Shown here one piece after another: positions 26,501 through 27,728 of a stretch of DNA of 64,000 nucleotides. Both the position numbers and the translations under genes were made by a program. Source of the stretch: Escherichia coli. Its GTDB lineage: Bacteria; Pseudomonadota; Gammaproteobacteria; Enterobacterales; Enterobacteriaceae. The notes beneath the pieces are model-generated. The model saw only the letters and a list, made by a program, of their open reading frames with translations. It did no database searches and was not told the origin of the DNA. The stretch lies in the NCBI RefSeq assembly GCF_003018255.1, contig NZ_CP027440.1; one strand, given 5' to 3'. The number at the start of each line of letters is the position of its first letter. Within the stretch, counting starts at the first letter, position 1.

Positions 26501-27728
26501 TAAAGTCGGTACGTTCGTCGCAGTATGCGCCGGTTACCGGATCGACAGGATCTGTTACCCATCTGATGACTTTATTGGCAATACTTTTTAACGACTTACC
26601 TGTTTTCCCCAGCAACGCGCCGAGCTTTGCCCCCAGCAGCTTCCCGCTTTTCCCCAGCAGGTTTCCCAGTTTGCCGAGTTTCGCCAGATTCCCCAGTTTT
26701 CCCAGCAGTCCCGCGGGCGGCAGAAGATAGCTGGCTATCGTTATTCCCCCCAGGATCATTCTCTGCCACGGCGGGAACTCCGGCTGGATATCCAGATAGG
26801 TCACCTGTTCACCGCCAATAAAGACGTCCGGCGAACCTTCCACGATTGCCGCGCTGCACTCCAGTTTGTCGCCCTTGCGCGCGGCAGGCTGATTGTTGAT
26901 AAAGACGTTGCTGCTGCCCTGGGCTATCCTCGGTGGTTTGTTCTCCTTGTCGCAGAGCGCCGTGTCCTCACCGGCTTCCGGGAAATCCACGTCTTTTTTG
27001 ATTTCGCCACGCCCGCCCACCATGGTGGCAAACTCCATTAATACCGGACCGGCGGGAAACAGAAGCGATGCGCCGGCGCTGACGCGATCCATAATACCGG
27101 CATTGCTGTCCGTCAGGGTGATAACAGCGTTCCCCCAGGCCTTCGCCAGTGGCACTGCTTTTTCCGCTGCCGATTCAAGCAGGTCAGTGGCAATATCCCC
27201 CCATGAAGGTTCCCCCTGTGGTGGAGAGGGTATTGCTTCAGTCAGGGGAGGAGGGGGAAGGGTGACGGCGGCCCTGGCTGCTGGCTTACCGTTAATTTTT
27301 ACGTTTTCAGAACCGGTATTGATGGCGCCGTCCGTGTCACAAAAACTGTTTATCCATGACTCAAGCTGGTTCTGTTTCTCCTCCACATAATCACTCGCCT
27401 TATAGCTGGCATACATCAGCGCAGGCACCAGAACCAGCGCATAAGGGCCGGTGGCGCAGGCGGCCATAATCAGGCAACCTTCTGCGATAGTTACTATCGC
27501 CCCCAGCACGGCCCCTGCCAGTGCCCCCAGAAAACTTTTATGCTGAATTTCATCGCCCAGCCTGGCGGCAGGTGGGCCGGACTTCTTTGCTGCCAGCATC
27601 TGTGCAATGGCTTTGTCGTTGGCTGCCCGTTTCATCTGGCTGGCGACCATCGCCTGCTGTGACAGCATTCGCATTGCCAGCGTACCGCCTGCGGTCGCTC
27701 CCTGTGGGCCGCCTGGTCCTTCACTCAT
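23589..27728 (-). CDS. prePAAR/PAAR-domain Rhs repeat protein (T6SS effector core with YD-repeat shell)
   Basis: 1379-aa ORF; prePAAR motif AARLGDEIQH near N-terminus, PAAR motif (NNQPAARKGDKLEC), many YD repeats (YRYD, YEYD, YDxxGR); ORF ends at in-frame TGA before the DPxGL region. Confidence 0.9.
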   Translation of the reverse strand: MSEGPGGPQGATAGGTLAMRMLSQQAMVASQMKRAANDKAIAQMLAAKKSGPPAARLGDEIQHKSFLGALAGAVLGAIVTIAEGCLIMAACATGPYALVLVPALMYASYKASDYVEEKQNQLESWINSFCDTDGAINTGSENVKINGKPAARAAVTLPPPPLTEAIPSPPQGEPSWGDIATDLLESAAEKAVPLAKAWGNAVITLTDSNAGIMDRVSAGASLLFPAGPVLMEFATMVGGRGEIKKDVDFPEAGEDTALCDKENKPPRIAQGSSNVFINNQPAARKGDKLECSAAIVEGSPDVFIGGEQVTYLDIQPEFPPWQRMILGGITIASYLLPPAGLLGKLGNLAKLGKLGNLLGKSGKLLGAKLGALLGKTGKSLKSIANKVIRWVTDPVDPVTGAYCDERTDFTLGQTLPLSFTRFHSSVLPLHGLTGVGWSDSWSEYAWVREQGNRVDIISQGATLYFAFDGDSDTAVNPYHAQYILRRRDDYLELFDRDALSSRFFYDAFPGMRLRHPVTDDTNDDRLAHSPGDRMYMLGGMSDTASNRITFERDSQYRITGVSHTDGIRLKLTYHASGYLKAIHRTDNGIQTLATYEQDARGRLTEADARLDYHLFYEYDAADRIIRWSDNDQTWSRFTYDEQGRCVNVTGADGYYNATLDYSDGCTTVTDGKGIHRYYYDPDGNILREEAPDGSTTTYEWDEFHHLLARHSPAGRVEKFEYNAVHGQLSRYTAADGAVWLYRYDERGLLSNITDPAGQTWTQQCDERGLPVSLVSPQGEETRLAYTAQGLLSGIFRQDERRLGIEYDHHNRPETLTDVMGREHHTEYSGHDLPVKMRGPGGQSVRLQWQQHHKLSGLERAGTGAEGFRYDRHGNLLAYTDGNGVVWTMEYGPFDLPVARTDGEGHRWQYRYDKDTLQLTEVINPQGESYRYLLDNCGRVTEEHDWGGVTWRYRYDADGLCTARVNGLEETILYSRDAAGRLAEIITPEGKTQYAYDKSGRLTGIFSPDGTSQRTGYDERGRVNVTTQGRRAIEYHYPDEHTVIRCILPPEDERDRHPDESLLKTTYRYNAAGELTEVILPGDETLTFSRDEAGREVLRHSNRGFACEQGWNAAGQPVSQRAGFFPEEATWGGLVPSLVREYRYDSAGNVSGVTSREDYGRETRREYRLDRNGQVTAVTASGTGLGYGEGDETYGYDSCGYLKAQSAGRHRISEETERYAGGHRLKQAGNTQYDYDAAGRMVSRTRHRDGYRPETERFRWDSRDQLTGYCSAQGEQWEYRYDASGRRTEKRCDRKKIRFTYLWDGDNIAEIREYRDDKLYSVRHLVFNGFELISQQCSRVRQPHPSVAPQWVTRTNHAVSDLTGRPLMLFNSEGKTVWRP

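What the first reader, a model, noticed from the sequence alone, without database searches (positions are those of the whole stretch)
26610..26745. Lys/Gly/Leu low-complexity repeat inside the Rhs protein between the PAAR region and the YD-repeat shell
The Rhs translation contains GLLGKLGNLAKLGKLGNLLGKSGKLLGAKLGALLGKTGKSLKS, an imperfectly repeated K-L-G-rich stretch encoded by repetitive DNA (repeated ttcccc/agcagc motifs on the plus strand). I do not recognise such a linker from Rhs proteins. It could be a flexible or amphipathic linker, and repetitive coding DNA of this kind is prone to slippage.
Basis: seen in the sequence. Interest (0 to 1): 0.35.

Follow-up and report, generated by a model that had tools for sequence, protein, structure and literature searches.

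The report
Lysine-glycine-leucine tether in Rhs toxin
The repetitive Lys/Leu/Gly stretch is real, and it is the E. coli version of a known but little-studied flexible, positively charged tether ("postPAAR" region) that links the spike-tip domain of a type VI secretion Rhs toxin to the plug of its toxin-carrying shell; it is a modest lineage-specific variant, not a new kind of element.

Summary
Rhs residues 340-382 (window 26583-26711, minus strand, about 30 nt from the stated coordinates) are 79% K/L/G against 22% for the whole protein. The DNA encoding them is a degenerate 9-nt/27-nt repeat.

The gene is a class I prePAAR-PAAR-Rhs type VI effector with VgrG and an Eag chaperone upstream, in an E. 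coli island between cusS and nfrB. The segment follows a conserved hydrophobic helix after PAAR. It ends about 10 residues before the N-terminal autocleavage motif (TD|PVDPVTG).

It aligns with the "postPAAR" region of Photorhabdus laumondii Rhs1 (7PQ5), labelled "TMD2" in that paper's supplement. There, lysines cross-link to the EagR chaperone, the prePAAR end and the barrel.

Related PAAR-Rhs proteins carry a variable region here (47-189 aa). One subgroup is strongly cationic and G/L/A-rich like this one.

Length differs between genera (E. coli 87, Citrobacter and Kluyvera 81, Salmonella 77 residues), and all indels fall inside the repeat. One of 87 sampled E. coli genomes has a perfect 9-nt duplication.

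AlphaFold gives the segment low confidence.

Best reading: a flexible cationic leash that is probably chaperone- and membrane-associated and connects PAAR to the plug. Its function was not shown here. Interest is low to moderate.

The parts
28237..30138 (-). VgrG spike protein (633 aa), first gene of the vgrG-eag-rhs unit
   Evidence: Pfam Phage_GPD 5.6e-75, Gp5_trimer_C, Phage_base_V; annotated as VgrG in the identical E. coli locus
27748..28209 (-). Eag-type chaperone (DcrB/DUF1795, 153 aa, net charge -9)
   Evidence: Pfam DcrB 2.5e-27; a DcrB gene sits directly upstream of the Rhs in all 9 lineages examined; charges
23589..27728 (-). prePAAR-PAAR-Rhs effector ORF (1379 aa), ended by an in-frame TGA just before the C-terminal protease/toxin part
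   Evidence: the TGA is compared with GGA in NZ_AP045067.1
27540..27569 (-). prePAAR motif AARLGDEIQH (aa 54-63)
   Evidence: sequence; Pfam prePAAR_I E=6.8e-5, 23.5 bits, just under the 25-bit cutoff
27399..27539 (-). N-terminal hydrophobic region (TMD1, about aa 64-110), the known Eag-binding element of class I effectors
   Evidence: sequence; phmmer alignment to 7PQ5 residues 28-139; Ahmad 2020
26799..26954 (-). C-terminal half of the PAAR domain (aa 259-310), ending in FIGG
   Evidence: Pfam PAAR_motif aa 267-310, 3.9e-16; strongly conserved, 14 synonymous vs 3 nonsynonymous differences to Salmonella
26712..26798 (-). [quoted passage not shown]
   Evidence: 12 synonymous vs 1 nonsynonymous difference to Salmonella; Kyte-Doolittle 19-residue maximum 1.62; AF2 helix at aa 320-334 with low pLDDT; hhalign to class II TMD2 gives 89% probability, E 2.3e-6, over 28 columns
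26655..26711 (-). Length-variable tripeptide-repeat half of the K/L/G segment (aa 340-358, GLLGKLGNLAKLGKLGNLL); holds the duplicated GKLGNL unit and every indel seen
   Evidence: hydrophobicity period about 3 residues (115-120 degrees), P=0.0015 vs shuffles
26598..26654 (-). More conserved half of the K/L/G segment (aa 359-377, GKSGKLLGAKLGALLGKTG) with G362-G366-G370-G374 at i, i+4 spacing
   Evidence: core GKLLG(A/P)KLGALL(G/A/S)(K/R)xG is shared by E. coli, Salmonella and Citrobacter, with a looser version in Kluyvera; the GxxxG spacing is not above chance given the composition
26553..26597 (-). Strongly amphipathic helix KSLKSIANKVIRWVT (aa 378-392) directly before the cleavage motif; candidate equivalent of the RhsA 'anchor helix'. 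The finder's quoted peptide runs 5 residues into it
   Evidence: Eisenberg hydrophobic moment 0.70-0.75 at 100 degrees; same position as RhsA 289-302 before P305; two E. coli alleles of equal length, 12 nonsynonymous vs 2 synonymous differences
26529..26552 (-). Predicted N-terminal autocleavage motif D393|P394 (DPVDPVTG)
   Evidence: aligns with P. laumondii GD288|P289IDVTTG, where D288N abolishes cleavage; conserved [DHNE]P[VI]D..[TS]G in 81 homologues
26364..26552 (-). DUF6531 / N-terminal plug ('cork') domain of the Rhs shell (aa 393-455)
   Evidence: Pfam DUF6531 5e-13; AF2 pLDDT above 86 from about aa 389 onwards

Best explanation
The K/L/G stretch is the Escherichia-lineage form of the post-PAAR tether of a class I prePAAR-PAAR-Rhs type VI secretion effector. 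The N-terminal piece of the protein runs prePAAR, TMD1, PAAR, a conserved hydrophobic helix (aa 317-335), the K/L/G segment (340-377), an amphipathic helix (378-392), and then the autocleavage site D393|P394. After cleavage, the segment is the only covalent connection between the PAAR cone on the VgrG tip and the helix that holds this N-terminal piece in the mouth of the Rhs shell.

Proposed mechanism, step by step:
(1) In the producer, the segment is an unstructured or transiently helical, +9 charged leash that lets the large shell hang beside the spike. This is shown for homologues: the region is flexible or unresolved.
(2) Together with the preceding hydrophobic helix it lies on or next to the acidic Eag chaperone. 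This is shown by pull-down and by lysine cross-links in the P. laumondii homologue, and is inferred here.
(3) After firing, its cationic Leu/Gly-rich helices associate with the anionic target inner membrane beside TMD1. It then transmits the pull that withdraws the seal/anchor from the shell so that the toxin can leave. This step is inferred from published models.

The repetitive appearance comes from in-frame duplication of a 9-nt (xLG) / 27-nt (GKLGNLAKL) unit. Composition and charge are constrained; the exact sequence is not.
For: Architecture: VgrG, DcrB/Eag, PAAR, DUF6531 and RHS repeats are all present.

Homology: phmmer to 7PQ5 gives E 2.6e-55. The segment aligns with the K-rich region 226-283 of P. 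laumondii Rhs1, and TD|PVDPVTG aligns with GD288|PIDVTTG.

Published data on that homologue: the postPAAR region co-precipitates with EagR. Cross-links join EagR S117 to Rhs K252, EagR S74 to K266, Rhs S2 to K226...K275, K226/251/254/266 to barrel K518/519, and K282 to toxin K1463/1476.

RhsA: the residues between PAAR and the seal peptide 268-275 are unresolved, an amphipathic anchor helix at 289-302 precedes cleavage at P305, the barrel is positionally flexible on VgrG, and the authors propose that the seal is 'pulled out'.

AF2: aa 300-387 score pLDDT 25-48 with short helices, while the shell scores above 90.

Comparative data: in 69 non-redundant homologues the PAAR-to-cleavage region spans 47-189 aa. 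Fifteen of them have net charge of +8 or more, including this one. The cationic subgroup shares the hydrophobic helix-PP-(S/A/T) architecture. Eag is acidic (-1 to -13) and postPAAR is cationic (+6 to +14) in all 9 cognate pairs.

Indels and evolutionary rate: differences of 6-10 aa between genera and a 9-nt duplication in one strain all fall at aa 340-358. Nonsynonymous roughly equals synonymous change in the segment, against 1:12 in the adjacent helix.
Against: No experiment or confident model exists for the E. coli protein.

The fused Eag-dimer/peptide AF2 test failed: mean pLDDT was 53.7, and the TMD1 positive control reached only 31-53.

For P. protegens RhsA, removing the first 74 residues abolished EagR1 binding, so that homologue shows only one Eag site. 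A second site is therefore not general.

Helical amphipathicity of the segment as a whole is unremarkable. The 100-degree peak is not above shuffles (P=0.2), and the dominant period is about 3 residues.

The GxxxG run is not above chance given 26% Gly (P=0.17 for pairs, 0.07 for a chain of four).

Salmonella and Citrobacter have a Pro inside the conserved core (LLGPKLG), which argues against one long helix.

Eag and postPAAR charges do not correlate in rank (rho -0.17, n=9).

Relaxed protein-level conservation is equally compatible with a passive spacer.
Confidence: 0.6

Rival explanations
1. Passive spacer only. The segment is a low-complexity linker whose single requirement is to be long and flexible enough to connect PAAR to the shell. 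Charge and Gly spacing are by-products of duplicating a K-L-G-coding unit.
For: Nonsynonymous roughly equals synonymous change between genera, and 6-10 aa indels are tolerated. AF2 pLDDT is 25-48. The region length ranges from 47 to 189 aa and net charge from -16 to +18 across homologues. The GxxxG count is not above chance. RhsA has only one Eag site.
Against: Strong positive charge with no acidic residue is kept in E. coli, Salmonella, Citrobacter, Kluyvera, Erwinia, Xenorhabdus, Pectobacterium and others. The core GKLLGxKLGALL is conserved across genera. Length is fixed in 86 of 87 E. coli genomes despite repeat DNA. At 33% Leu it is far more hydrophobic than typical passive linkers. The homologous lysines cross-link to EagR, and the isolated region is pulled down by EagR.
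Confidence: 0.25
2. Cryptic second transmembrane / glycine-zipper domain. The hydrophobic helix plus the K/L/G segment is the class I equivalent of class II TMD2. It inserts into the target inner membrane and permeabilises it or forms the conduit for the toxin, as proposed for the GxxxG repeats of Tde1.
For: The segment occupies the same position as TMD2, directly after PAAR. hhalign between class I post-PAAR and class II TMD2 gives 89% probability, E 2.3e-6, over the PExPxW motif and first helix. G362-G366-G370-G374 sit at i+4 spacing and the pattern is kept in three or four genera. The Jurenas supplement itself labels the region 'TMD2'. Tde1 sets a precedent for a chaperone-bound GxxxG region needed for membrane permeabilisation and delivery. 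Many homologues have a truly hydrophobic Gly-rich region here: 36 of 69 have KD of 1.6 or more.
Against: Nine lysines in 43 residues make a membrane-spanning helix very unlikely. Only the upstream helix reaches KD 1.62. hhalign does not extend into the K/L/G part. The class II signature GxxxxGxxLxGxxxD is absent (versus the sequence). The GxxxG run is not significant. Salmonella and Citrobacter have a Pro in the core.
Confidence: 0.12
3. Contingency or phase-variable tract. The repeat and the nearby homopolymer exist to switch the gene, or to split PAAR from Rhs, at high frequency by slippage.
For: One strain has a perfect 9-nt tandem duplication. Frameshifted products occur at a G6 run 12 codons upstream (P0031, P0030, P0028, P0036) and inside the segment in Shigella sonnei (P0016). 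Split prePAAR-PAAR / Rhs genes were noted in Shigella by Ahmad 2020.
Against: The repeat units are imperfect (75%) and multiples of 3, so they change length rather than frame. Only 1 of 87 sampled genomes shows a length change. The G6 run is GGGAGG in four of the five other E. coli alleles read, L002-L005. The frameshifted forms come from Shigella, a pseudogene-rich lineage, or from small clusters that may contain homopolymer sequencing errors.
Confidence: 0.03

Closest known systems
postPAAR region ('TMD2' in Supplementary Table 1) of Photorhabdus laumondii Rhs1 / Tre23, PDB 7PQ5 (Jurenas et al. 2021, PMC8636562)
   Same: It lies at the same position, between the PAAR FIGG end and the D|P autocleavage motif, and aligns by phmmer. 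Both have a conserved hydrophobic helix ending in PP(S/A), followed by a Lys/Gly/Ala/Leu-rich cationic stretch. A cognate DcrB/Eag gene sits upstream. Both belong to the N-terminal fragment released by cleavage.
   Different: The E. coli stretch is shorter (86 vs about 99 residues from FIGG to the residue before the cleavage Asp), far more repetitive (xLG tripeptides, duplicated GKLGNL), richer in Leu/Gly, and free of acidic residues. Eag binding and cleavage have not been tested for it.
Seal peptide (268-275) and amphipathic anchor helix (289-302) of Pseudomonas protegens RhsA, PDB 7Q97 (Gunther et al. 2022, PMC8765631)
   Same: E. coli aa 378-392 is a strongly amphipathic helix directly before the cleavage motif, like the anchor helix. 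The RhsA seal region, read from the alignment as KGKFLSNL preceded by LKGG, is also K/G-rich and lies about 37 residues before the cleavage site. By spacing this corresponds to LLGKSGKL inside the K/L/G segment.
   Different: Sequence similarity in this region is negligible. RhsA cleaves after His (H|P), not Asp. The RhsA region upstream of the seal is hydrophobic rather than cationic. AF2 did not place the E. coli helix with confidence, so the seal/anchor assignment rests on spacing alone.
Second transmembrane region (TMD2) of class II prePAAR effectors such as Tse6 (Ahmad et al. 2020, PMC7773334)
   Same: It starts immediately after PAAR with the same xIxPE(F/I)PxW junction and a first hydrophobic helix (hhalign 89%), followed by a Gly-rich stretch. 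It is bound by an Eag chaperone.
   Different: Class II has uncharged Gly-zipper helices and the GxxxxGxxLxGxxxD motif. The E. coli segment has 9 Lys, lacks that motif, and leads into an Rhs shell.
N-terminal GxxxG glycine-zipper region of Agrobacterium Tde1 (Ali et al. 2023, PMC10240207)
   Same: It is a Gly-repeat region in the delivery part of a T6SS effector. It is held by a chaperone/adaptor in the producer and proposed to act on the target inner membrane.
   Different: There is no sequence relation. Tde1's zipper overlaps a predicted TMD, binds Tap1 rather than Eag, and its function is tested. Here the function is not tested and the GxxxG spacing is not above chance.
Cationic Gly/Leu/Lys-rich amphipathic antimicrobial peptides (bombinin/maximin/PGLa type; recalled from memory, not tested)
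   Same: The composition matches (G, L, K, A; no acidic residues; net charge about +4 per 18 residues). A HeliQuest-style discriminant is above 1.3 for windows 343-375 (threshold recalled from memory).
   Different: The segment is an internal part of a 1379-aa protein. Its hydrophobic periodicity is about 3 residues rather than 3.6 in the first half. No membrane activity has been shown.

Membership tests
Class I prePAAR (PAAR-Rhs) T6SS effector | N-terminal prePAAR motif AARxxDxxxH | tested here: met
   AARLGDEIQH at aa 54-63. Pfam prePAAR_I gives 23.5 bits, E 6.8e-5, just under the 25-bit cutoff.
Class I prePAAR (PAAR-Rhs) T6SS effector | PAAR domain followed by YD/Rhs repeats forming a shell | tested here: met
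   Pfam PAAR_motif 3.9e-16 and RHS_repeat 8.8e-78 in 10 stretches. AF2 predicts the shell with pLDDT above 90.
Class I prePAAR (PAAR-Rhs) T6SS effector | Cognate Eag (DUF1795/DcrB) chaperone and VgrG encoded next to it | tested here: met
   DcrB 2.5e-27 and VgrG domains lie directly upstream. The same order occurs in 9 lineages.
Class I prePAAR (PAAR-Rhs) T6SS effector | C-terminal aspartyl-protease motif and toxin domain fused to the core | tested here: not met
   In this window an in-frame TGA (23589-23591) ends the ORF after ...VWRP. The Tox-MPTase5 domain lies in the next ORF, 22917-23450. The gene is intact in NZ_AP045067.1. This affects gene integrity, not the family assignment of the N-terminal part.
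postPAAR region of Rhs1-type effectors (Jurenas 2021) | Lies between the PAAR domain and the N-terminal D|P autocleavage motif | tested here: met
   phmmer alignment to 7PQ5. Anchor-based extraction in 81 homologues.
postPAAR region of Rhs1-type effectors (Jurenas 2021) | Contains a conserved alpha-helix | tested here: met
   aa 317-335 is conserved: 12 synonymous vs 1 nonsynonymous difference to Salmonella. AF2 predicts a helix in both runs, though with low pLDDT. This helix lies upstream of the K/L/G segment, not inside it.
postPAAR region of Rhs1-type effectors (Jurenas 2021) | Binds the Eag chaperone (second binding site) | tested here: inconclusive
   The fused Eag2-TMD1-Eag2-postPAAR AF2 model gave pLDDT 32-53 for postPAAR. 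The TMD1 positive control reached only 31-53. A biochemical test is needed.
postPAAR region of Rhs1-type effectors (Jurenas 2021) | Autoproteolysis at the following Asp-Pro | not testable with these tools
   The motif TD|PVDPVTG is present and aligned. Cleavage itself needs protein chemistry.
Class II TMD2 (Tse6-type) | Predicted transmembrane helices after PAAR | tested here: not met
   Only aa 324-342 reaches KD 1.62. The K/L/G segment has 9 Lys in 43 residues.
Class II TMD2 (Tse6-type) | GxxxxGxxLxGxxxD motif (e.g. GEGSDGQK) | tested here: not met
   The motif is absent from the E. coli sequence. It is present in 14 comparison proteins.
Glycine-zipper membrane-permeabilising region (Tde1-type) | Consecutive GxxxG motifs | tested here: inconclusive
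   G355-G359 and G362-G366-G370-G374 are present and largely conserved in 4 genera. They are not above chance given the Gly content (P=0.17 and 0.07).
Glycine-zipper membrane-permeabilising region (Tde1-type) | Permeabilises the inner membrane and is needed for delivery but not for secretion | not testable with these tools
   Needs ONPG/PI uptake and competition assays.
Slippage-driven contingency repeat | Near-perfect short tandem units with frequent length polymorphism among close strains | tested here: not met
   Units are 75% matched, TRF score 48. Only 1 of 87 sampled E. coli genomes has a length change.

The most novel reading that the evidence does not exclude
The cationic Leu/Gly-rich segment, together with the hydrophobic helix before it, is a degenerate second membrane-active module of class I Rhs effectors, which the field currently describes as having a single TMD. 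It would be kept on the acidic Eag chaperone in the producer. In the target cell it would bind and locally destabilise the anionic inner membrane and act as the rope that uncorks the Rhs shell. Its charge and length would then tune delivery efficiency and could explain lineage-specific expansions.
Probability: 0.2. Interest if true: 0.55.

Novelty: new member of a known kind. Interest (0 to 1): 0.3.

Why it matters
How the toxin of a class I Rhs effector leaves its shell and crosses the target inner membrane is still open. The piece of chain that physically couples the spike tip to the plug has received almost no attention. Reviews still describe these effectors as having one TMD.

This analysis shows that the tether is a recognisable, compositionally conserved region: cationic and Gly/Leu-rich, preceded by a helix homologous to the first helix of class II TMD2. 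It gives concrete residues to mutate in a genetically easy organism. About 40% of complete E. coli genomes carry this locus (2160-2195 of 5426).

On its own, the segment is an ordinary lineage-specific variant of a described region.

Tried and rejected
1. AF2 of aa 300-1379 with a 54-sequence alignment. The shell was confident, but aa 300-387 scored pLDDT 25-48. This gave no information on whether the segment or the 378-392 helix sits inside the shell.

2. AF2 of a single-chain fusion (Eag-Eag-TMD1-Eag-Eag-postPAAR, 924 aa, 10 paired lineages). Mean pLDDT was 53.7 and pTM 0.27. The TMD1 positive control failed, so the test is uninterpretable.

3. The first word-indexed homologue search returned only fragments of 430 aa or less. 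These were useful for spotting frameshift and truncation variants but not for comparison. The exhaustive representative search was used instead.

4. 'One long amphipathic alpha-helix' was rejected. The 100-degree periodicity is not above shuffles, the dominant period is about 3 residues, and Salmonella and Citrobacter have a Pro in the core.

5. 'Glycine zipper' as an established feature was rejected, because the spacing is not significant given the composition.

6. 'PAAR domain-containing protein' annotations in E. coli hits as evidence of a split inside the repeat were rejected. The one such locus read (H19/L003) is intact through the segment and truncated further downstream.

7. A charge co-variation test between Eag and postPAAR found no correlation (n=9).

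8. RNA element or antisense gene: Rfam found nothing at E up to 1. The two plus-strand ORFs overlapping the segment have no credible Pfam match.

9. A literature search for a described Lys/Gly-rich Rhs linker found nothing beyond the postPAAR paper.
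Full report
**1. What is at the site**

The minus strand carries a 1379-codon ORF at 23589-27728. Pfam finds PAAR_motif (aa 267-310), DUF6531 (393-455), ten RHS repeats and a weak prePAAR_I match. Directly upstream lie a DcrB/DUF1795 (Eag-type) chaperone at 27748-28209 and a VgrG at 28237-30138.

A 701-nt stretch around the finding is 100% identical to E. coli NZ_AP045067.1. There the unit sits between cusS and nfrB. The stretch is present in about 2160-2195 of 5426 complete E. coli genomes.

The quoted peptide is aa 340-382, which is window 26583-26711. The finder's coordinates are offset by about 30 nt.

**2. Is it more than chance?**

Thirty-four of 43 residues are K, L or G, against 21.7% in the whole protein (binomial P about 2e-15). 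No other 43-residue window in the protein is as K/L/G-rich. The LG and GK dipeptides are over-represented relative to shuffles of the segment (P=0.002 and 0.004).

At the DNA level the repeat is degenerate. TRF reports period 9, 5.1 copies, 75% matches and score 48. The repeat finder reports 21-24-nt copies at 67-79% identity. Gly codons are 8/11 GGG/GGA in the segment against 37/130 elsewhere (P=0.005), as expected for copies of a CTG-GGR-AAA unit.

**3. Where it sits in the protein**

phmmer against PDB sequences aligns the N-terminal 573 residues with Photorhabdus laumondii Rhs1/Tre23 (7PQ5, E 2.6e-55) and, weakly, with P. protegens RhsA (7Q97). In that alignment WVTD393|P394VDPVTG matches FFTGD288|P289IDVTTG. 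This is the N-terminal autocleavage site of Rhs1, which the D288N mutation abolishes.

After the PAAR 'FIGG' end, the order of elements is:
- junction motif YLDIQPEFPPW;
- a hydrophobic helix, QRMILGGITIASYLLPPA;
- the K/L/G segment, aa 340-377;
- a strongly amphipathic helix, KSLKSIANKVIRWVT (hydrophobic moment 0.70-0.75);
- the cleavage motif.

No Pfam model covers aa 311-392.

**4. What is known about this region**

[quoted passage not shown] EagR binding is lost only when prePAAR, PAAR and postPAAR are all removed.

Their Supplementary Table 1 labels the region 'TMD2' and lists cross-links made by an amine-reactive reagent:
- EagR S117 to Rhs K252, and EagR S74 to Rhs K266;
- Rhs S2 to K226, K234, K247, K251, K252, K254, K266 and K275;
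- K226, K251, K254 and K266 to barrel K518/K519;
- K282 to toxin K1463/K1476.

These lysines lie in the K-rich stretch that aligns with the E. coli segment.

In RhsA the chain between PAAR and a short 'seal peptide' (268-275) is unresolved. An amphipathic 'anchor helix' (289-302) lies inside the shell just before cleavage at P305. The barrel is positionally flexible on VgrG. The authors propose that mechanical force pulls the seal out to release the toxin.

Against a general second chaperone site: RhsA lacking its first 74 residues no longer binds EagR1. Current reviews still describe class I effectors as having a single TMD.

**5. Comparison with homologues**

An exhaustive profile search with aa 259-507 found 1038 proteins at E up to 1e-3. 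I anchored on the PAAR end and the cleavage motif and extracted the intervening region from 81 proteins, 69 of them non-redundant.
- Length ranges from 47 to 189 residues, with a median of 83.
- Net charge ranges from -16 to +18.
- Thirty-six have a TM-like window (Kyte-Doolittle 1.6 or more).
- Fifteen are strongly cationic (+8 or more).

The E. coli protein (+9/+10) belongs to the cationic group. That group also includes Erwinia tracheiphila, Xenorhabdus, Pectobacterium parmentieri and Muribacter muris; Inquilinus limosus, at +7, falls just below the cut-off. These share a hydrophobic helix ending in PP(S/A/T), followed by a K/R/G/A/L-rich stretch.

Close relatives were reached through the neighbours of Eag homologues. 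From FIGG to the cleavage Asp the lengths are Salmonella Infantis 77, Citrobacter freundii 81, Kluyvera intermedia 81 and E. coli 87 residues. Every indel lies in aa 340-358. PAAR, the hydrophobic helix and the plug domain have no indels. The extra E. coli residues are a second copy of GKLGNL(AKL). The second half of the segment, GKLLG(A/P)KLGALL(G/A/S)(K/R)xG, is recognisably conserved.

Synonymous versus nonsynonymous codon differences to Salmonella:

| Region | Synonymous | Nonsynonymous |
|---|---|---|
| PAAR C-terminal half | 14 | 3 |
| Hydrophobic helix | 12 | 1 |
| K/L/G segment | 8 | 8 |
| Anchor-like helix | 3 | 9 |
| Plug domain | 29 | 14 |

The segment therefore evolves quickly in sequence while keeping its composition and charge.

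**6. Variation within E. coli**

Of 87 genomes sampled evenly down two rankings, 86 have the same length. ETEC1722 has a perfect tandem duplication GAATCTGGC-GAATCTGGC, which turns NLA into NLANLA.

About 9% of genomes carry a second allele of equal length. It differs mainly in the anchor-like helix (SRTKNALKNTYNVLKKFIKD), with 12 nonsynonymous against 2 synonymous differences.

Truncated products also exist:
- a frameshift inside the segment in Shigella sonnei (P0016);
- frameshifts at a G6 run 12 codons upstream (P0031 and relatives).

Repeat-unit slippage is thus documented, but it is rare and in frame. It is not a switch.

**7. Structure and physico-chemistry**

AF2 on aa 300-1379 with a 54-sequence alignment gives a confident shell (pLDDT above 90). 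For aa 300-387 it gives pLDDT 25-48, with short helices at 320-334, 354-366, 368-372 and 379-383.

The hydrophobicity spectrum of the segment peaks at 115 degrees, a period of about 3 residues (P=0.0015 against shuffles). The alpha-helical 100 degrees is not significant (P=0.2). The first half has period 3, the second half about 3.8, and only aa 378-392 is a clean amphipathic alpha-helix.

Four Gly residues at i+4 spacing (362, 366, 370, 374) resemble a glycine zipper. This is not above chance for a stretch that is 26% Gly.

Eag proteins are acidic (-1 to -13 per monomer; E. coli -9) and the postPAAR regions are cationic (+6 to +14) in all nine cognate pairs. There is no rank correlation between the two.

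A profile-profile comparison of class I post-PAAR regions with class II TMD2 regions gives 89% probability (E 2.3e-6). It covers only the PExPxW junction and the first hydrophobic helix; the K/L/G part does not align.

A fused-chain AF2 attempt to dock the region on Eag dimers was uninformative, because the TMD1 positive control also failed.

**8. Interpretation**

The segment is best read as the Escherichia-lineage version of the post-PAAR tether: a flexible, cationic, Leu/Gly-rich leash. After autocleavage at D393|P394 it is the only covalent link between the PAAR cone and the helix that keeps the N-terminal fragment in the mouth of the shell.
- Shown here: its position, its homology to the postPAAR region, its flexibility in prediction, and its indel and evolutionary-rate pattern.
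- Shown only in homologues: flexibility, proximity to EagR, and the cleavage.
- Inferred: association with the acidic chaperone in E. coli, binding to the anionic target membrane, and transmission of the pull that opens the shell.

The main rival is a purely passive spacer. It is hard to exclude, given the fast sequence evolution. A true transmembrane or pore-forming role is unlikely with nine lysines. A phase-variation role is not supported.

**9. Novelty and score**

The kind of region is published (postPAAR/'TMD2'), although it is barely characterised and is ignored in the class I 'one TMD' description. The K-L-G tripeptide-repeat form appears specific to Escherichia and its near relatives. 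I found no description of it.

I rate it a new member of a known kind, with interest 0.3. It is useful as a set of testable residues for the open question of Rhs toxin release. It is not surprising in itself.

Noticed in passing
window 23589-23591 and 21181-21183 (minus strand): The main Rhs ORF ends at an in-frame TGA after ...EGKTVWRP, where NZ_AP045067.1 has GGA (Gly). The reading frame continues (QTSLWGLALSLPADTGYPDPRGELD...) into a Tox-MPTase5 toxin ORF at 22917-23450. The downstream orphan Rhs fragment (21181-22257) ends with the identical sequence and the same TGA. An exact 51-mer with the TGA was found in only 3 of 5426 E. coli genomes, and in NZ_AP045067.1 only in the orphan copy. This looks like gene conversion from the orphan core end into the main gene, which would disable toxin fusion. 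Recoding cannot be excluded.
   Followed up: partly
window 20273-23450 (minus strand): Downstream array: Tox-MPTase5 toxin ORF (22917-23450); a 140-aa ORF (22504-22926, likely immunity, no credible Pfam match); an orphan Rhs core fragment (21181-22257); Tox-PL-2 papain-fold toxin (20557-21000); and a 93-aa ORF (20273-20554). This is a typical Rhs orphan toxin/immunity cassette arrangement.
   Followed up: partly
window 26746-26751 (C6 on the plus strand, G6 in the gene): A homopolymer run lies in codons L326-G327-G328, 12 codons upstream of the segment. Several database proteins (P0031 with 9 members, P0030, P0028, P0036) read as a G7 frameshift here. They give about 377-aa prePAAR-PAAR-only products ending in an alternative frame through the K/L/G DNA (...GTAGKTEESGETRQTGKPAGEKREAAGRKARRVAGENR). 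Four of the five other E. coli alleles read (L002-L005) have GGGAGG instead of G6. These could be real pseudogenes or homopolymer sequencing errors.
   Followed up: partly
window 26553-26612 (aa 373-392): Two equal-length E. coli alleles of the amphipathic helix before the cleavage site: GKTGKSLKSIANKVIRWVTD and SRTKNALKNTYNVLKKFIKD. The second occurs in about 187 of 2186 records. There are 12 nonsynonymous against 2 synonymous differences in 16 codons, while the flanks are nearly identical. The patch is either mosaic (recombined) or under diversifying selection, possibly co-varying with the shell interior.
   Followed up: partly
window 26955-27260 (aa 157-258): About 100 residues are inserted between the two halves of the PAAR domain: a Pro-rich stretch (TLPPPPLTEAIPSPPQGEPSWGD) followed by a partly hydrophobic region (...AGASLLFPAGPVLMEFATMVGG). 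The insert is conserved in Salmonella, Citrobacter and Kluyvera. It is absent from P. laumondii Rhs1, where query residues 155 and 253 align to adjacent residues 139 and 138. Its function is unknown.
   Followed up: no
proteins P0084, P0104, P0110, P0124, P0164, P0169: Full-length PAAR-Rhs proteins (1375-1510 aa) carry the class II signature (GEGSDGQK-type motif) and a TM-like Gly-rich region after PAAR. The published split 'class I = Rhs with one TMD, class II = small with two TMDs' is therefore not clean.
   Followed up: no
protein P0002 (ENA contig): This homologue has a clean 50-residue deletion joining MILG to KSLKS. It removes most of the hydrophobic helix and nearly all of the K/L/G segment (48 of the 50 residues fall before K378), leaving the anchor-like helix intact. 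It is a single sequence and could be a real deletion between short repeats or an assembly artefact.
   Followed up: no
protein P0062: This E. coli-like homologue has pervasive P>L, T>I and A>V substitutions (all C>T at the DNA level). It is probably derived from damaged or bisulfite-type sequence data and was excluded from the comparisons.
   Followed up: no
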